Assembly: GCF_009914755.1 (NCBI RefSeq)
Contig: NC_060945.1
Direction: 5' to 3' (one strand)
From: the human T2T-CHM13v2.0 reference genome, Homo sapiens
Length of the DNA: 64,000 nt
Shown: one piece after another, positions 1,620 to 62,519 of the stretch
How positions within the stretch are numbered: position 1 is the stretch's first letter
How the letters are laid out: each line of letters starts with the position of its first letter
The notes under the pieces: generated by a model
Seen by the model: the letters and a program-made list of their open reading frames with translations, nothing else
Told to the model about the DNA's origin: nothing
Database searches by the model: none
Made by a program: the position numbers and the translations under genes

Positions 1620-5637
<4,018 letters not shown>

Positions 5638-5948
5638 TGCCAGGTGCAGTGGCTCACACCTGTAATCCCAGCACTTTGGAAGGCAGAGGTGGGGCAATCA
5701 ACAGAGGTCGGGACCAGACTGACCAACATGGAGAAACCCCATTTAGAACTAAAAATGCAAAATTAGCTGGGCGTCGTGGCGCATGCCTGTAATCCCAACT
5801 GCTCAGAAGGCTGAGGCAAAAGAATGGCTTCAACCCGGGAGGTGGAGGTGGCAGTGAGCCAAGATCACACCACTGCACTCCAGCCTGGGCAACGGAGCGA
5901 GACTCCATCTCAAAAAACCAAACCAAACTAAACCAAAACAAAAAAAAC
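5638..5948 (+). mobile_element. Alu (S-type, with an internal deletion), no evident TSD
   Basis: gccaggtgcagtggctcacacctgtaatcccagcac ... gagactccatctc then (CAAAA)-like tail. Confidence 0.9.
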
Positions 5949-6019
5949 CCTGAAATCATATCAATTATTTTTTCTGACCGGAATGGAAGAGTATTAAAAA
6001 ATCAGTAACAGGAGGAATT

Positions 6020-7335
6020 TTTTTCCCGACCGTCTTTGGCTCCCTCTCTCGCCACCCTTTTTCTTCCTCCATCTACCCCAAAACTTTTTCCCCACCATTT
6101 TTTCCCCATTGTCTTTTTGCAAAGCCTTCTATACTATACCGCTCACTTCCGTTTTCCCCACCCATCTACCCCAAAACTTTTCCCCACCGTGTTTTCTCCC
6201 TCTCTCTGGCCACCCTTTTTTCCGCCTCCCGCTCTCATCATCCTCTTTTGCTCCTTCATCTCCCCAAAAACATTTCCCTCATCTTTTCCCAAAGCCTTCT
6301 CCCCACTCCTGCTGCTCGCCACCCTCTCTTTCCCCTTCCGTCTACCCAAAAACTGTTTCCCTATCGTCTTTTTTCCCTTCCTCCTTGCCACCCTTTCCCT
6401 TCTCCATCTACCCAAAAACATTTTCCCGCCGTCTTTTTGCAAAGCCTCTTCTCTACTCCTGCTCACCACGCTCTTTTAACCCATCTACCTCCCCAATTTT
6501 TCCCTGCCATCTTTTCACAAAGCCTTCCCCTCTTCCCGCTCGCCCTCTTCTTTCCTCTATCCTGCTTGCCACCCTCTTTTTGCCCTCCATCTACCCCAAA
6601 CTATTTTCCCCATCGCCTTTTTCCCAGTCCTCTTTCCCCACTTCCTCTGGCCAAACTTTCTATTCTCCCCCCGCTTGTCACCCTCTTTTCCCCCTCCATC
6701 TACCCAAACACTTTTTACCCACTGTCTTTTCTTTCTACACTTTCTTTTCTGCCTATCGTCTTTTCGCAAAACCTTTTCTCTTTCCCGCTCGCCACCCTCT
6801 TTACCCTTCTCCCACTGGCCACCCTCTTTCCCCCCCTCCATCTACCCAAAAGCTTCTCTCCTCACTGTCTTTTTGCAAAACCTTCTCTCCCTCCTGCTCG
6901 CCACTCTCTCTTCCCCCTCCCTCTCTGCAACCTCTTTTCTCCTCCCACTTGTCACCCTTTTGCCCCCTCCATCTACTCAAAATCTTTTTACCCACAGTCT
7001 TCTTTCCCTTTCTTCTCTCCCCACCATATTTTTGCAAACCTTCTCTCTCCTTCCTGCTCATCCCCGTTCCCCTCTCACGACCCTCTCTTACCCCCTTCCA
7101 TCTACCCAAAAACTTTTTCCCCACCATCTTTCTGTGAAACCTTCTCTACCTCCTGTTCACCACCCTGTTTTTCCCCCTCCATCTACCCCCCAATTTTTTT
7201 TTCCCCAACATCTTTTCCTCATCGTCTTTATGCAATGCCTTCTCCGGCTCACCATCCTTTTTTCCTTTTGGCACTAACCACCCTCTTTACCCTTCCATCT
7301 ATCCCGAAACTATTTTCCCCTTCCTACCTTTCCAG
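6020..7335. repeat. Diverged pyrimidine-rich tandem array, core ccatctaccc(c)aaaa
   Basis: Core recurs about 13 times at ~65-140 bp spacing; + strand is C/T-rich and G-poor. Confidence 0.9.
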
Positions 7336-7915
7336 CCACACTACAGTGTCTGTCGCCACCAACTGCAGGGAGGCCAGCCACGGTGCAGCAGGCTACAGCC
7401 TCCAGTCTGTCCTGGTCCTCTAAGCCGGGCTCGGAGCAGCTCGGTGAGCAGACACAGAAGAACCTGGAACAGCCTGACTCTTCTTCAGCCCCATTTATGT
7501 ACTGAAGTTATGAATATGCGGTTCGTGGACTACACGTTCCAGGATTGGATAAGAGAAAGCCCAGAGGCCTACTCTGATTGGACTTTGTTATCATGTTCTG
7601 ATTGGATGAAAGAAAGTCTTAGGACAACCAATCAGTGTATGAAAATAAAGTCCAATCAGAGAAGGCCTAGAGATTTTCTCTCACCCAATCAGAACATGTA
7701 GTCCAGAAACCATGCGCATAACCCCATGTGCATGCTGAGGAGGCCTCACGCCAGTTTAGGGTCTCCGGTATCTCCCGCTGAGCTGCTCTGTTCCCGGCTT
7801 AGAGGACCAGGAGAAGGGGGAGCTGGAGGCTGGAGCCTGTAACACCGTGGCTCATCTCGCTCTGGATGGTGGTGGCAACAGAGATGGCAGTGCGGCTGGA
7901 GTGTTAGGAGAGTGG
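7320..7915. promoter_or_regulatory. BAGE promoter: diverged inverted repeat with 3 ATTGG + 3 CCAAT boxes and mirrored GGACTACA motifs
   Basis: ATTGG at 7544, 7577, 7601; CCAAT at 7628, 7652, 7685; ggactacacgttc (~7527) mirrored by gaacatgtagtcc (~7692); lies directly upstream of and over exon 1. Confidence 0.85.
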
Positions 7916-7948
7916 CCTGAGCAGTAGGATTGGGGCTGGAGCAGTAAG
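7749..7948 (+). other. BAGE: BAGE exon 1 5'UTR, containing uORF 7866-7907 (MVVATEMAVRLEC*)
   Basis: Matches my recollection of the BAGE cDNA 5' end (cgcca.tttagggtctccggtatctcccgctgagctgctctg...); start site is from memory; uORF read directly from sequence. Confidence 0.75.
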
Positions 7949-7963
7949 ATGGCAGCCGGAGCG
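7949..7963 (+). CDS. BAGE: BAGE-family coding exon 1 (MAAGA)
   Basis: aagATGGCAGCCGGAGCG|gtaaga: good Kozak (A at -3, G at +4) and good donor; joins in phase 0 to 9433. Confidence 0.92.
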
Positions 7964-8129
7964 GTAAGAGTGCAGCCTGAGCGGTAGGAGGGTGGCTGGC
8001 AGCTGGAGCTGCTCTTGACCGGCTAGAGGTCTAGGAGAAGGTGGGGACCGTGCCCAACACTGGCGGCTGGAGCCTTGGCCACCGCGGCTCGCCTGGCTGC
8101 AGTTGGAGGTGGCGACGGAGACTGCATCT

Positions 8130-8900
8130 CTGTTAGAGTAGTAGAAAGGTGGCAGGGTAGGTGCGCTCTCTGTGGCTGCACTGCCCGCTTGCGGGGTGGT
8201 GGGGGAGCGGGTTTGGTGTGCTTTTGGAGCTGCACTGCCTGCCGCAGGGGGCTGGTGGGTGGCACTATCAGGTGTTGAATTGCTGGCAGTGGGGCAGGTT
8301 TGCTGCGCTATCAGAGTCTACACTGCCTAAGGTGGTGGGGGGTTGGAGGCAGGTTGTGTGTACCGTCGTGCACTGCCAGCAGCGGGTGGTGGGGGATTAG
8401 GGGCATTATTAGCTGCTACACTGGCTGATGCAGGGGGCGGGTTTGGTGAGCTATCGTGAGCTACAATGTCAGCAACAATGCCAACTGGCAGGCAGTCGGG
8501 GGTGCTTTAGGGGAGCTGTGAAATGTTGCATTGTCTGTGGGGGAAAGGGGAAGGTGGGGTCCAGGGGTTTGTTGGGTGCACTACCCCGGGCGTTCACTGC
8601 CTGCGACAGGAGCAGACTGGGGGCGCTATCTGGGGCTATACTGCTTGTGGTCCGGGTGGGGGGCGGGTTTGATGGGGTGCTATTTGGTGCTGCAACACCC
8701 ATGGTGGGGATAGGTTGTGGACACTATCAAGTGTTACACTGCCAGGAGCAGAGGGGTCATTTGGGGGCGCTATCAGTGTTACACTGCCTGCAGCAGTCTC
8801 TGGGTGTGTTGTGGGCACAATCCGGGGGCTAAGCGTGTGGTGGAGGGGGCAGGTTAGGGGCGCTATGGGGGGAAGCTGCACTGCTGCTTCCAGCGGCAGG
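8130..8900. repeat. Degenerate G-rich ~60-bp tandem array in BAGE intron 1
   Basis: About 10-12 variants of ggg(g)cgctatc..g.tacactgcc followed by G-runs (e.g. ~8262, 8306, 8621, 8720, 8765, 8858). Confidence 0.75.
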
Positions 8901-9432
8901 TTGTGGAGGTGGCCACGACAGTGGTGGCCTCTGAGGAAGGGGCCCTTCTCCTCTTCCCGGATTCAAGGCTCTAGAGTGTGAACAACTTCTGCTCGTGTTG
9001 GAGCGTGGAGGGTGCACAGAGTTTTTGTGGCAATCCTCTGACCACCGCAGGGCCCTCACACCCACCATGGTTACTCGGCCCTTGCCCTCTTGCTCTGTGT
9101 TGTGGGGACCATCTGGGAGCCCCAGGCATGGAGTAGTGGGCACCACGGGGGCTCAGGGTCCTGTGGGTGGAGGAGTAAGGAATGGGAACTGGTAATTGGG
9201 TTGGGAGGACTGGCTGGGTCTGAGTTTCTGCTGTTCTTGCTCCCCAAGGAGCCGCGGACACTGTGGTGTCTCCAGTCCCCACCCCAGGTCAGGAGGCCAG
9301 CTCGGTCTAGGAGGAGAGGCTGGACTTTGGAGGGTGGGTGTAAGTGCCTTCGCTGAAACTGGCCCCAGTCACCCAGTGGGCAGCATGACAGGGTGAGGCT
9401 CTAACACTGCCACTTTCTGCATCCTATTGTAG

Positions 9433-9537
<105 letters not shown>

Positions 9538-10407
9538 TTCATCTTCTGCGGTTGTGGCAGCCACGGTGATGGAGACGGCAGCTCAACAGGAGCAATAGGA
9601 GGGTACCCATGGAGGCCAAGTGGTAGGATCCTTGGAGGGTGGGCAGGTGCATGGAAGGTGACAGCAGCGCTGATTCCTTTGGTGTCGGCGCAATGGTGGC
9701 AGCAGCAGCAAGTCTAGGGGCCAGGAAGGGGAAGTAGGAGAGCTTTGGGGCCCGGCCCGGCCTGGGGTGGGTAAGAAGCTGCTGGTTCTGTACTGCAGGC
9801 CTCAGTGACAGTGGTGGAGGTGCAGCCAGGGCAAGGAGGAGTCCTCCCCCTTCTCCTGTGGTCTCTGGTCTCTGGAGGGTGCCCTCCTTCTGCTAGCATC
9901 TGAGTCAGGTGTGAGTGGCAGCATTGTTTCATTCTTAACAGAATTTAGGGGCTTACTATTTGTGTATCTTTTTGTTTTTGGTTGTGATAACCCTTAAGGG
10001 ACAAAAGGCTTCTTTGGCTGAGTTTTGGTGTCATGGGATCCCCCCATGTAAGACACAGGGTGCTTTCCTGGCAAGCTGTGTGTTGGAGGGAGTTCACCAA
10101 GGGGAAGAAAGGGAACCTCTCAGGAAGGTGGCTGCTGTGGCAGGTCCCCTGCCTCTGGGCACCCTTTAGGCCACCTAGTTTCCCCTGTGGAAGAGGGGAG
10201 GCTTAGACCGTTATCACTTGTATCATCAAAGAGGCATCCTGGCTGGGCCAGTTGATTTGACCTTCCCACTTCTTCAGCCCACCTGCCCATGGTGTCACCT
10301 GGGAAAACTGGAACCTCAGGCCACAGGGGCAGAGGCTTCTCCGGCAGGCTGATTGCTATAGCGGATTCTGTTCTGCCTGCTGCTCAGGAGGGCTTCTATG
10401 GCCACCG

Positions 10408-10985
10408 ATCACTGCAACCTCCGCCTCCTGAGATCAAGCGATTCTCCTGTCTTAGCCTCCCAAGTAGCTGGGATTACAGGCGTGCTACCATGCCCGGCTA
10501 ATTTTTTTTGTTGCTGTTTGTTTTTTTTTAGATGAGTCTCGCTCAAGATGAGTCTCGCTCTGTTGCCCAGGCTGGAGTGCAGTGGCGTGATCTCGGCTCA
10601 CTGCAAACTCCGCCTCCTGGGTTCACGCCATTCTCCTGCCTCAGCCTCCCTCCCGAGTAGCTGGGACTACAGGCGCCTGCCACCATGCCCGGCTAATTTT
10701 TTGTATTTTTAATAGAGATGGGGTTTCACCGTGTTAGCTAGGATGGTCTTGATCTCCTGACCTCGTGATCTGCCCACCTCAGCCTCCTAAAGTGCTGGGA
10801 TTACAGGTGTGAGCCACCACGCCTGGCCTATGCCTGACTAATTTTTGTATTTTTAGTAGAATACTAAAAATACAGGGTTTTGCCATGTTGGCCAGGCTGG
10901 TCTTGAACTCCTGACCTCAAGTGATCTCCCCTGCCTTGGCCTCCCAGAATGCTTGGATTACAGGCATGAGCCACCATGCCCAGCT
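10408..10985 (-). mobile_element. Truncated Alu with a younger Alu (~10503-10828) nested in its linker
   Basis: TSD-like atgcccggctaatttt / atgcctgactaatttt flank the inner Alu; the outer Alu lacks its tail end. Confidence 0.88.
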
Positions 10986-60751: not shown

Positions 60752-62137
60752 AGAGTTTTGTATCTCTTTGTTTTCTTCTTTCTGATTCAGCCCTCAGCAG
60801 TCATTTAGCTTTGTTATGTTGATTCAATGCAGTAGACTGATGACAGTGAGGAAGAGTTTGATAGTATGTGAGATACAGATTTACACATAAAACATTGAAA
60901 ACAATTATAATTTTAACTACTGTAGTCCCTGGTTAATTAGCAGAATATAAAGTCAGTGTAGTAACATGTGAAGATATCCACAGTAATGTTAGCAGGGTCC
61001 AACTGTCTCTGCTGCGTGAGGCTCCAGTTATCTCAGCTAAGCTGTTTATGAGCCACACTCACAAACAAGATCACCAAAAGTTAAGTATTTTTGGTATATG
61101 TATAGGAACACCTATCTATTAGGGCCTGTTTGAAGCAGCATTTTTGGTGCTTTGGATACAAAGATAGTATGGTGCATCAACTGAAGGATCTTGGATTAGG
61201 ATGAGAAAAAGGTAAACTGATCATGTAATGGCATAAGCAAGTAGGTACCATGTAACGGTGTAAACAAAAATTTATGTTAGATAGTCATTTCCCACAGAGA
61301 GATTTCATACTGTATAGTACAGGGCCCATCAGACTCTCTTCAAAGAAAATGATGCTCAAAATGGACTTGGGAGAATGAGGAAGAGTTTGTGAATCATTCT
61401 AAGGGAAAACTGAATAAGTAAATGCAACATTTTACATAATTTCTTCCGACTTCTTATGTGTTCACTTGCCCTAGACTGCCCCTCTTGTTTGGGGCTTATT
61501 TCTGTGCATTTTACCACTTGCAAGATAATGGAGGCAGGTTGAAATGGGAAAGATACCAGATGACTAATTTTTTCCCCCACATTTCCATCTTTTGTTAAGA
61601 AATTTGAAGTTGATTGCTACATTGAAGTATGTAGTTTTGTTTTTTTTGTGAGTCTTTAACCATTTGTGTCCCTGTTAACTTATAATTGATGAATTTATTT
61701 TGTATTTATTTTTAGGCAGGGTAAAAAATAGTAATATGTCTTATAAATAATATATGTTCCTATTACTAGTTTTGGTAGGATTTAAAAACTTTATAATAAT
61801 CCTCAATATAGAAACCTGCCCCTTTAACCATATTACTATTTGCTTTTAAAAAATATTTTAGGTTTTGTTTATAAAATGCTTCACAATTTATTTTTGAAAA
61901 TATAAGGAATGAAATTCTAACTTTCTAATTTGAATGGAAGGATGAGTTGGTAGCACACGAAGCACAAAATTGAGTAATGTAGATTTTATTATTTTTAATG
62001 AATCCTTTGTTTAATATTTTGCAGGTTCAATTTGTTTACTTGTGATGTACAGAGAGTTTTTTATACCTTCCCAGCTTATATTTGAATATTCCTTTTCAAG
62101 GTTTTATAAAGAGATTTCTCTCCTTTACCCCTTTCAG

Positions 62138-62300
62138 CGATGTGCATTTTGTAAGCACTTTGGAGCCACTATCAAATGCTGTGAAGAGAAATGTACCCAG
62201 ATGTATCATTATCCTTGTGCTGCAGGAGCCGGCTCCTTTCAGGATTTCAGTCACATCTTCCTGCTTTGTCCAGAACACATTGACCAAGCTCCTGAAAGAT
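62138..62300 (+). pseudogene. KMT2C: Duplicated KMT2C (MLL3) PHD-region exon (163 bp, likely exon 7), reused as a BAGE exon
   Basis: ctttcag|CGA...AGAT|gtaagt; original frame RCAFCKHFGATIKCCEEKCTQMYHYPCAAGAGSFQDFSHIFLLCPEHIDQAPER; shifted frame DVHFVSTLEP...LLKD is the BAGE2/3-type C-terminal part; paralogous copy, not the parent gene. Confidence 0.92.
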
Positions 62301-62519
62301 GTAAGTTTACTACGCATAGACTTTTAAACTTCAACCAATGTATTTACTGAAAATAACAAATGTTGTAAATTCCCTGAGTGTTATTCTACTTGTATTAAAA
62401 GGTAATAATACATAATCATTAAAATCTGAGGGATCATTGCCAGAGATTGTTGGGGAGGGAAATGTTATCAACGGTTTCATTGAAATTAAATCCAAAAAGT
62501 TATTTCCTCAGAAAAATCA

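What the first reader, a model, noticed from the sequence alone, without database searches (positions are those of the whole stretch)
7320..7915. BAGE promoter is a ~600-bp diverged palindrome with mirror-symmetric CCAAT boxes
Seen: ATTGG at 7544, 7577, 7601 and CCAAT at 7685, 7652, 7628 all reflect about the same axis (7616.5). Homology extends through ggactaca/tgtagtcc and outwards: gagctgctc...cccggcttagaggaccagga...ctggaggctg.agcctg...caccgtggct (7780-7852) is the reverse complement of 7376-7442. So a promoter-plus-first-exon unit was duplicated head-to-head. Established: NF-Y CCAAT boxes and ACTACA (ZNF143/THAP11-associated) motifs are typical of bidirectional promoters. Inference: a portable two-way promoter cassette that can switch on whatever duplicated gene fragments land beside it. 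I do not recall this being described for BAGE.
Basis: partly seen in the sequence, partly recalled or inferred. Interest (0 to 1): 0.85.

Follow-up and report, generated by a model that had tools for sequence, protein, structure and literature searches.

The report
BAGE promoter is a REP522 palindrome
The mirror-image BAGE promoter is real, but it is one copy of a known multi-copy human repeat (REP522) whose CCAAT-rich centre marks the start of transcripts on either side at many duplicated loci.

Summary
Window 7322-7909 is a diverged palindrome about axis 7616.5: 221 of 281 ungapped columns match (z 17.6 against shuffles), with three ATTGG and three CCAAT boxes in mirror positions. It is not special to BAGE. 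I verified 60 copies in T2T-CHM13. All 21 sampled left arms form one clade that excludes all right arms, so the head-to-head duplication predates the family's spread. Two published anchors identify the family as REP522. One paper places REP522 in the chr21 BAGE locus. The MIR5701 hairpins, reported to lie in Rep522, match the window core at 76-82%. Of the first 53 copies, 31 carry annotated gene 5' ends 33-165 nt from the axis, pointing outward, and 6 carry both. These include BAGE, POTEE/F and MED15P9; a further copy carries RFPL2 and SLC5A4-AS1. The 10 BAGE-type copies show only rightward starts. The 150-nt CCAAT core changes about three times more slowly than the arms. Verdict: real and functional-looking, but already known. 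The conserved six-box core and the gene list may be new detail.

The parts
7322..7616 (.). Left arm of the palindrome
   Evidence: complementary to 7617-7909, 79% over ungapped columns.
7617..7909 (.). Right arm of the palindrome. It holds the BAGE-type transcription starts and the first part of exon 1.
   Evidence: Curated BAGE, BAGE5 and BAGE2 5' ends lie 133, 145 and 110 nt right of the axis in their own copies, which corresponds to about window 7726-7761.
7540..7693 (.). Conserved core with six CCAAT boxes: ATTGG at 7544, 7577, 7601 and CCAAT at 7628, 7652, 7685. Five of the six read CCAATCAG. The core has no CpG.
   Evidence: Identity of 17 distant copies to this copy is 0.84-0.89 across 7566-7715, against 0.54-0.72 in the arms. 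Parsimony changes per column are 0.84 in the core and 2.54 in the arms. 26 of 53 copies keep all six boxes.
7606..7627 (.). Central 22-nt spacer between the innermost boxes. The axis is at 7616.5.
   Evidence: The spacer lies in the opposite orientation in 6 of 53 copies.
7529..7534 (+). ACTACA hexamer on the left arm
   Evidence: Exact in 23 of 53 copies; 21 copies read ACTGCA.
7697..7702 (-). ACTACA hexamer on the right arm (TGTAGT on the + strand)
   Evidence: Exact in 38 of 53 copies.
7683..7963 (+). Annotated exon 1 of LOC124908139 (BAGE3-like, Gnomon model). Its coding part is 7949-7963.
   Evidence: RefSeq rows supplied with the finding.
7915..7986 (+). 20-nt tandem repeat (3.6 copies) holding the BAGE start codon at 7949 and the exon-1 splice donor. 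It is specific to the BAGE-type subfamily.
   Evidence: tandem repeat; identity to distant copies is 0.01-0.24 across 7866-7965; segment 7885-7990 was found in 12 of 60 loci, namely the 10 BAGE-type copies, L014, and a 27-nt piece in L053.
8006..8124 (+). Second, direct copy of the outer right arm. It is also complementary to 7344-7406.
   Evidence: (pair I3).
6018..7319 (.). Pyrimidine-rich degenerate tandem array that travels with the palindrome, always on this side.
   Evidence: 48 of 53 copies have it, in fixed polarity.
7979..9989 (+). Right-hand part of the co-duplicated module. It contains BAGE exon 2 (9433-9533).
   Evidence: distant copies match query positions 2000-2489 and 2640-4010, about window 7979-9989, at 65-76%..

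Best explanation
Window 7322-7909 is the palindromic centre of one copy of the REP522 repeat family. This is an old head-to-head duplication of a TATA-less promoter-plus-leader unit. Its 150-nt centre carries six NF-Y-type CCAAT boxes, three facing each way.

The copy sits in a block of at least 4 kb that was spread by segmental duplication to pericentromeric, acrocentric and a few euchromatic sites. Wherever the block lands, the core can start transcription about 35-165 nt outward from the axis, roughly 50-90 nt beyond the outermost box, on either side. It thereby supplies a first exon to whatever lies beside it.

In the BAGE lineage the rightward start was joined to two module-derived exons and then to exons of a duplicated KMT2C fragment. 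The start codon arose in a lineage-specific 20-nt tandem repeat.

Shown here: the palindrome, the family, the age of the palindrome, the slow-evolving core, and the outward-facing annotated gene starts. Inferred: NF-Y binding, silencing by DNA methylation with release in testis, embryo and cancer, and leftward activity of this particular copy.
For: Family membership:
- 60 verified copies.
- A 21-nt core string gives 95 hits in 65 places, against 6 hits for the reversed control.

Identity as REP522:
- hsa-miR-5701 is reported to overlap a Rep522 repeat (preprint 10.1101/2021.12.09.471935 passage). Both annotated MIR5701 hairpins lie inside stretches matching window 7520-7725 at 76-82%.
- REP522 is described as about 1.8 kb, largely palindromic, and enriched for cancer-activated CAGE promoters (PMC4896275 passage).

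Age of the palindrome:
- 21 of 21 left arms form one clade (support 0.805). Within-copy arm identity is 0.68, about the same as left-versus-right identity between copies (0.67) and below left-left (0.73) and right-right (0.75).

Promoter use:
- Of 53 copies, 23 have a forward gene 5' end 33-149 nt right of the axis (my median from the rows is 110).
- 14 have a reverse 5' end 42-165 nt left of the axis (median 125.5).
- 6 have both, so 31 of 53 have at least one. A random 1001-nt interval holds a gene 5' end about 1.9% of the time.
- 3 of the 7 later copies also carry gene starts: SLC5A4 and RFPL3; RFPL2 and SLC5A4-AS1; LINC01518.

Constraint on the core:
- Fitch changes per column on 38 full copies are 0.50 in the CCAAT pentamers, 0.92 in the core spacers and 2.54 in the outer arms. 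The pentamers are lower than random core columns (permutation P = 0.014).
- Using only columns that are never CpG in any copy, the figures are 0.68 for the core and 1.70 for the arms.

Other:
- No TATA-like hexamer in 7301-7950.
- The BAGE exon 3 region is 98% identical to an internal stretch of KMT2C, and no family copy was seen near KMT2C.
Against: - I could not align the window to the REP522 consensus because no Dfam or RepeatMasker tool was available. The identification rests on two published statements plus homology.
- The assembly's soft-masking leaves window 5980-10404 unmasked.
- I detect palindromy over only about 590 nt, not 1.8 kb.
- No expression, CAGE, methylation or ChIP data were available. 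NF-Y binding is inferred from sequence alone.
- At this copy and all 10 BAGE-type copies no leftward gene is annotated (0 of 10).
- 22 of 53 copies have no annotated outward-facing gene start.
- The slow core could partly reflect base composition or better alignment, since the gap fraction is 0.011 in the core and 0.089 in the arms.
- Gene 5' ends come from RefSeq gene rows, many of them Gnomon models. Copies related by recent duplication are not independent observations.
- The main paper (Kaczkowski 2016, Cancer Research) was not held.
Confidence: 0.8

Rival explanations
1. One-way promoter at this copy. The family can fire both ways, but in the BAGE lineage only the right arm is a working promoter and the left arm is an inert relic.
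For: 7 of 10 BAGE-type copies have a forward annotated start and 0 of 10 have a reverse one. No minus-strand transcript is annotated near the three BAGE-type chr21 copies checked.
Against: The left arm of the BAGE lineage has not decayed faster than the right. Identity to chr5 copy L011 is 0.829 (left) versus 0.849 (right). Mean tree distance to outgroups is 0.473 (left) versus 0.482 (right). 9-10 of 10 BAGE-type copies keep each of the three left-arm boxes. Annotation in acrocentric heterochromatin is sparse.
Confidence: 0.35
2. The palindrome arose locally, by a head-to-head duplication of the BAGE promoter and first exon.
For: Both arms are present in the window at about 70-79% identity.
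Against: The same two arms, with the same arm-specific differences, occur in copies on chromosomes 2, 5, 7, 9, 10, 13, 14, 15, 17, 18, 20, 21 and 22. Left arms are monophyletic, 21 of 21. Arm divergence within a copy (0.68) is no smaller than between copies (0.67).
Confidence: 0.02
3. It is the inverted-repeat body of a foldback-type mobile element, and the gene starts beside it are incidental.
For: The literature calls REP522 an unclassified interspersed repeat. The centre folds as a strong hairpin: -40 kcal/mol as DNA, z -9.35.
Against: The palindrome is never seen moving alone. The same asymmetric flanks accompany it in 48 of 53 copies (left) and 52 of 53 (right). Homology runs over about 4 kb, as expected of segmental duplication. 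The gene starts are strongly enriched and oriented outward (31 of 53, against about 2% expected). The box-bearing core is the slowest-evolving part. I did not search for target-site duplications.
Confidence: 0.07
4. The centre is a microRNA gene of the MIR5701 type, and the hairpin is what is conserved.
For: MIR5701-1 and MIR5701-2 are annotated on the equivalent hairpin of two chr15 copies. The window hairpin is stable.
Against: No Rfam family reaches its gathering score; there are only sub-threshold hits to plant microRNA models, on both strands. Within the core the CCAAT pentamers change least, which fits protein binding sites better than a stem. A preprint lists miR-5701 among microRNAs that merely overlap known repeats.
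Confidence: 0.03

Closest known systems
REP522 (RepeatMasker/Repbase 'Satellite/telo', an unclassified interspersed repeat)
   Same: A multi-copy, largely palindromic element reported in the chr21 BAGE locus. It overlaps MIR5701 and acts as a promoter source that is silent in normal tissue and active in cancer and at the 8-cell stage (passages read).
   Different: Nothing contradicts membership. I measure only about 590 nt of palindromy, inside a co-duplicated block of at least 4 kb, whereas the abstract gives about 1.8 kb. In the texts I could read I saw no description of the six mirrored CCAAT boxes, their slow evolution, or the symmetric start sites.
NF-Y-dependent bidirectional promoters of mammalian genes
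   Same: TATA-less. Several CCAAT boxes lie 50-100 nt upstream of divergent starts. Divergent pairs of annotated starts lie about 150-300 nt apart at six copies.
   Different: The promoter here is a repeat copy, a true sequence palindrome, with intermediate CpG content (observed/expected 0.38, and none in the core). NF-Y occupancy was not tested. That NF-Y sites are enriched in bidirectional promoters is recalled, not taken from a call.
LTR12-type and other repeat-derived promoters, such as the LTR-driven DSCR4/DSCR8 bidirectional promoter on chr21
   Same: A primate repeat supplies tissue-restricted, methylation-silenced promoters to neighbouring transcripts. DSCR4/DSCR8 is described in PMC3560060.
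   Different: This element is not an LTR. It spreads with segmental duplications rather than by retrotransposition. The LTR12/NF-Y comparison is recalled, not tested.
MIR5701 hairpin loci (chr15)
   Same: These hairpins occupy the same central palindrome in two sister copies, 76-82% identical to window 7520-7725.
   Different: No microRNA is annotated in the window copy. The central spacer is flipped in the chr15 copies.

Membership tests
REP522 repeat family | Sequence match to the REP522 library consensus (a RepeatMasker/Dfam call) | not testable with these tools
   No Dfam or RepeatMasker was available. Indirect evidence: REP522 is reported in the chr21 BAGE locus, and the MIR5701 hairpins said to lie in Rep522 match window 7520-7725 at 76-82%. 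The assembly soft-mask does not cover 5980-10404.
REP522 repeat family | Largely palindromic | tested here: met
   Arms 7322-7616 and 7617-7909 match in 221 of 281 ungapped columns, z 17.6. Every one of the 40 places listed also matched on the opposite strand.
REP522 repeat family | Unit of about 1.8 kb | tested here: inconclusive
   Palindromy is detectable only within about 295 nt of the axis. Homology among copies runs over about 4 kb. The consensus limits are unknown to me.
REP522 repeat family | Interspersed and multi-copy, mostly near chromosome ends or centromeres | tested here: met
   60 verified copies on 13 chromosomes, many pericentromeric or on acrocentric short arms. 'Mostly in telomeric regions' is PMC6545021's wording. 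My copies are mostly pericentromeric.
REP522 repeat family | Source of promoters activated in cancer | not testable with these tools
   No expression data were available. In the annotation, 34 of 60 copies have a gene 5' end at or near the palindrome. This count leaves out PCAT7 at L045, which starts 429 nt right of the axis and runs leftwards.
NF-Y-type bidirectional promoter | Two divergent transcription starts less than 1 kb apart | tested here: not met
   At the window copy only the + strand gene is annotated. In the family the feature is met at 6 of 53 copies and at the RFPL2/SLC5A4-AS1 copy.
NF-Y-type bidirectional promoter | CCAAT boxes with NF-Y-type flanks upstream of the starts | tested here: met
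   There are six boxes and five read CCAATCAG. Starts lie about 50-90 nt beyond the outermost box. That this flank suits NF-Y is recalled.
NF-Y-type bidirectional promoter | NF-Y occupancy | not testable with these tools
   No ChIP data were available.
NF-Y-type bidirectional promoter | CpG-island context, TATA-less | tested here: inconclusive
   No TATA-like hexamer was found. CpG observed/expected is 0.38 over 7320-7915 and 0 in the core. This is below the usual island threshold (recalled as 0.6) and may reflect decay after methylation.
ZNF143/THAP11 'ACTACA' site | ACTACA followed by the rest of the motif (recalled as ACTAYRNNNCCCR) | tested here: not met
   The hexamer is present on both arms at 7529 and 7697. 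The following bases read ..CGTTCCA and ..TGTTCTG and do not give the CCC block. The hexamer is exact in only 23 of 53 copies (left) and 38 of 53 (right).
MIR5701-type microRNA | Homologous hairpin, with a curated RNA family or evidence of processing | tested here: inconclusive
   Homology is met and the hairpin is stable. No Rfam family reaches its gathering score. Processing is not testable.

The most novel reading that the evidence does not exclude
The 150-nt centre of REP522 is not just a decaying repeat. It is a selectively maintained NF-Y pad of six mirrored boxes that works as a methylation-gated two-way promoter. Carried around by segmental duplication, it has repeatedly given first exons to new primate genes. 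On this reading one element explains the shared cancer/testis expression of BAGE and POTEE/POTEF, of many lncRNAs (PCAT7, LINC01189, LINC01193, CCDC144NL-AS1, LINC00408, LINC01518), and the 5' ends of RFPL2, RFPL3 and a long SLC5A4 form.
Probability: 0.45. Interest if true: 0.5.

Novelty: already known. Interest (0 to 1): 0.3.

Why it matters
The finding ties a well-known tumour antigen gene to a named repeat family, and it shows how pericentromeric duplication blocks acquire expression. A ready-made, two-faced, methylation-silenced promoter travels with the duplicated DNA.

For cancer/testis antigens it offers one common cis-element behind BAGE and POTEE/POTEF expression. For genome annotation it flags about 60 places where divergent, multi-mapping transcripts should be expected.

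The new detail here is the slow-evolving six-box core, the symmetric starts and the list of genes fed. This makes NF-Y dependence directly testable. The central claim itself is not new.

Tried and rejected
Checks that led nowhere or were rejected:
- Local origin of the palindrome at BAGE is rejected by the arms tree.
- Extension of the palindrome into the pyrimidine-rich left array and the G-rich right flank was not found in 10 copies. The short complementary pieces (pairs I7, I9, I10 and others) are at chance level.
- Faster decay of the left arm in the BAGE lineage, as an explanation for the missing leftward genes, was not seen.
- Whole-core inversion in the MIR5701 and chr22 copies: the inner arms did not discriminate, so only the central spacer is clearly flipped.
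- Rfam gave only sub-threshold plant microRNA hairpin hits on both strands at 7550-7683, which I take as hairpin artefacts.
- Mapping the junction between the module and the KMT2C-derived DNA with a 20-kb query failed. Common repeats swamped the search: 187,265 candidates, 3 scored.
- The soft-mask table does not mark the element. I do not take this as evidence against a library repeat, because the masking method is not stated.

Literature:
- Searches for BAGE with promoter/CCAAT, juxtacentromeric/MLL3, POTE/bidirectional promoter (swamped by 'potential') and palindrom gave no description of the BAGE promoter's structure. The same holds for MIR5701 and RFPL.
- REP522 occurs in 14 held papers, 13 of them listed. 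'Largely palindromic' together with 'interspersed repeat' occurs in one.
- I read passages only, not whole papers, of PMC3560060, PMC3757347, PMC6545021, PMC11353194, PMC4240582, PMC6925957, PMC4896275, PMC3084872 and preprints 10.1101/2021.12.09.471935 and 10.1101/189753. PMC8524813 had no occurrence in its main text.
- Kaczkowski 2016 (Cancer Research) and Horie 2017 (Molecular Cancer Research) are not held. I know them only through citations. Ruault 2002 and 2003 were seen only as references.
Lists of REP522-overlapping promoters may sit there and could already contain BAGE, POTE or RFPL.

Rows dropped:
- L016 and L018 duplicate the places of L014 and L009 and were left out of all counts.
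- The arms tree used 21 of 53 copies, chosen to span the subfamilies.
- The parsimony test used 38 of 53 copies. Left out were the half copies L014, L020, L040 and L041; the flipped-spacer copies L031, L032 and L037; and the left-deleted or rearranged copies L045, L048-L052, L054 and L055.
- The conservation profile used 18 copies.
- Six single pattern hits with 2 mismatches (chr2 x2, chr6, chr14, chr15, chrX) were not checked and are not counted as copies.
- The orientation of L037 by its flanks is ambiguous (251 versus 161 bits).
Full report
**1.

Reading 7100-8150 and locating the motifs gives ATTGG at 7544, 7577 and 7601 and CCAAT at 7628, 7652 and 7685. Each pair mirrors about 7616.5. The repeat finder reports nested inverted arms from 7543-7608/7625-7690 (79%) out to 7322-7361/7870-7909 (78%).

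Aligned globally, the left arm and the reverse complement of the right arm share 221 of 281 ungapped columns, or 221 of 315 columns counting gaps. The score of 143 lies 17.6 standard deviations above 500 dinucleotide-preserving shuffles, none of which comes near it. The direct, non-complemented comparison scores -211.

Five of the window's seven CCAATCAG octamers lie within 119 nt here. The palindrome stops at about 295 nt from the axis.

**2. It is a family, not a BAGE peculiarity.**

Searching the reference with 7320-7915 found 40 places. Every place matched on both strands, at about 70% on the opposite strand. The unmasked 4.4 kb around it (5980-10404) found further places. A 21-nt core string found 95 hits in 65 places, against 6 hits for the reversed control.

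After fetching and checking I count 60 verified copies. Ten are BAGE-type, at 93-100% identity, on chr21, 13, 22, 15, 18 and 9. This agrees with the twelve BAGE loci mentioned in PMC3084872. The rest are 70-82% identical over the palindrome.

Distant copies align over about 4 kb:
- window 6018-7000, the pyrimidine-rich array;
- the palindrome;
- 7979-8468;
- about 8620-9989, which contains BAGE exon 2.

The flanks are asymmetric and always in the same polarity. The left array is present in 48 of 53 copies and the right flank in 52 of 53. So the 600-nt cassette travels inside a larger block, as expected of segmental duplication.

**3. The palindrome is older than the family's spread.**

I built a tree from 21 left arms and 21 reverse-complemented right arms. 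All 21 left arms form one clade (support 0.805) with no right arm inside. Within-copy arm identity (mean 0.68) equals left-versus-right identity between copies (0.67). It is lower than left-left (0.73) and right-right (0.75) identity. The head-to-head duplication therefore happened once, before dispersal, and the arms have since evolved independently.

**4. What it is called.**

[quoted passage not shown] The region is H3K9me3-marked in human liver, and carries H3K4me3 and Pol II when the chromosome sits in a mouse nucleus (passage).
- A preprint lists hsa-miR-5701 as overlapping a Rep522 repeat. The two annotated MIR5701 hairpins on chr15 lie exactly on the central palindrome of two family copies, which match window 7520-7725 at 76-82%.
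- RepeatMasker's class for REP522 is Satellite/telo.
- Other passages report REP522 RNA rising at the 8-cell stage and in tumours, and its enrichment in lncRNA exons.

I could not run the consensus comparison itself, and the main paper is not held. I put the identification at about 0.85-0.9.

**5. How it most likely works.**

I oriented the first 53 copies by their flanks and placed RefSeq gene 5' ends relative to each copy's axis.

| Configuration | Copies (of 53) | Distance from axis | Median |
|---|---|---|---|
| Forward start, right of axis | 23 | +33 to +149 | 110 |
| Reverse start, left of axis | 14 | -42 to -165 | 125.5 |
| Both | 6 | | |
| At least one outward-facing start | 31 | | |

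The six copies with both are POTEF/MED15P9, a chr15 pair, LOC105373000/AP1B1P1, a chr14 pair, a chr9 pair and a chr2 pair. PCAT7 is an exception: it starts 429 nt right of the axis and runs leftwards. A random 1001-nt interval holds a gene 5' end about 1.9% of the time.

Three of the seven later copies add further starts:
- SLC5A4 and RFPL3;
- RFPL2 and SLC5A4-AS1, divergent and 42 nt apart;
- LINC01518.

The starts lie roughly 50-90 nt beyond the outermost CCAAT box on each side. There is no TATA-like hexamer.

The core is the most conserved part:
- Identity of 17 distant copies to this copy is 0.84-0.89 across 7566-7715, against 0.54-0.72 in the arms.
- On a tree built from non-core columns of 38 full copies, parsimony changes per column are 0.50 in the CCAAT pentamers, 0.92 in the core spacers and 2.54 in the outer arms. 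The pentamers are lower than random core columns (P = 0.014).
- Using only columns that are never CpG in any copy, the core has 0.68 changes per column and the arms 1.70.
- 26 of 53 copies keep all six boxes and 39 of 53 keep at least five.

I therefore read the core as a constrained, NF-Y-type, two-way promoter. NF-Y binding and methylation gating are inferences from sequence and from the cited epigenetic passages.

**6. The BAGE copy specifically.**

- Its rightward start feeds exon 1 (7683-7963 in the Gnomon model). Curated BAGE, BAGE5 and BAGE2 starts correspond to about 7726-7761.
- The start codon (7949) and the exon-1 donor lie in a 20-nt tandem repeat at 7915-7986. This stretch exists only in the BAGE-type subfamily and one chr5 relative: 12 of 60 loci, one of them a 27-nt piece.
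- Exon 2 lies in the shared module.
- The exon 3 region is 98% identical to an internal part of KMT2C on chr7. This fits the published origin of BAGE from an MLL3 fragment, which I know only from reference titles and from recall.
- No leftward gene is annotated at any of the 10 BAGE-type copies or in the chr21 transcript table. Yet the left arm is no more decayed than the right, and 9-10 of 10 BAGE-type copies keep each left-arm box. Whether this copy fires leftwards remains open.

**7. The ACTACA motif.**

The hexamer is present on both arms. The hexamer is exact in only 23 of 53 left arms (21 read ACTGCA) and 38 of 53 right arms. I do not rely on it.

**8. Comparison and verdict.**

The thing works like an NF-Y-type bidirectional promoter carried on a repeat, much as some LTRs do. 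It is, with high probability, a member of REP522, whose palindromic form and promoter activity are already in print.

What I did not see in the texts available to me:
- the six mirrored, slowly evolving boxes;
- the symmetric start sites;
- the single ancient origin of the palindrome;
- the list of genes fed (BAGE, POTEE/F, MED15P9, RFPL2/3, SLC5A4 long form, PCAT7, UBBP4 and others).

These may sit in the unread paper or in closed supplements. Novelty: already known. Interest: 0.3. The boldest reading still open is that one selectively kept NF-Y pad seeds new primate genes and explains shared cancer/testis expression. I give it about 0.45.

Noticed in passing
window 7915-7986: The BAGE start codon (7949) and the exon-1 splice donor lie inside a 20-nt tandem repeat. 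This stretch exists only in the BAGE-type copies and one chr5 relative (12 of 60 loci), so the first five codons are a lineage-specific addition next to the repeat's right arm.
   Followed up: yes
L031 2516-2597 and L032 2554-2635 (chr15:18856815-18856896, chr15:19727853-19727934): The annotated MIR5701-2 and MIR5701-1 hairpins are the central CCAAT palindrome of two family copies. The two stem strands are the two arms.
   Followed up: yes
L019 and L022 (chr2:130563391, chr2:131643359): POTEF and POTEE, also cancer/testis antigens, have their annotated 5' ends 89 and 146 nt right of the axis of family copies. MED15P9 starts divergently at the POTEF copy. The other POTE genes in the table do not start at a copy I found.
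   Followed up: partly
L056, L057, L037 (chr22:32.82, 32.67, 32.59 Mb): Family copies sit at the 5' ends of RFPL3 and a long SLC5A4 form, of RFPL2 and SLC5A4-AS1 (divergent, 42 nt apart), and of AP1B1P1 and a lncRNA. These are euchromatic protein-coding genes fed by the same element.
   Followed up: partly
window 7606-7627; L020, L031, L032, L037, L040, L041: The roughly 22-nt central spacer is in the opposite orientation in 6 of 53 copies, while the arms do not look swapped. This looks like a flip of the loop of the palindrome.
   Followed up: partly
L045, L048-L052, L055 (chr9 x6, chr13): Seven copies share a 59-column deletion that removes the two outer left boxes (window 7532-7590 equivalent). 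Two of them (L048, L052) still have a leftward annotated start. Their right half-core is 88-91% identical to the window, far above the flanks.
   Followed up: no
window 6018-7319: A 1.3-kb pyrimidine-rich degenerate tandem array (periods 14-27 reported) is not soft-masked. It accompanies the palindrome on the same side in 48 of 53 copies. Its CpG observed/expected ratio is 0.84, higher than in the palindrome.
   Followed up: partly
window 8006-8124: A second, direct copy of the outer right arm (matching 7780-7884) is also complementary to 7344-7406. It is present in distant copies as well.
   Followed up: partly
window 61900-62500: The BAGE exon 3 region is 98% identical to chr7:153446395-153446996, inside KMT2C. 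There are ten further near-identical copies on acrocentric chromosomes.
   Followed up: yes
window 5759-5910 and 10409-10616: A pair of inverted, soft-masked repeats (77-90% complementary) brackets the unmasked module. They are probably Alu elements in opposite orientation.
   Followed up: no
L020, L040, L041, L014: Half copies keep only one arm. L020 and L041 still have annotated starts (LINC00408, LOC105372004).
   Followed up: no
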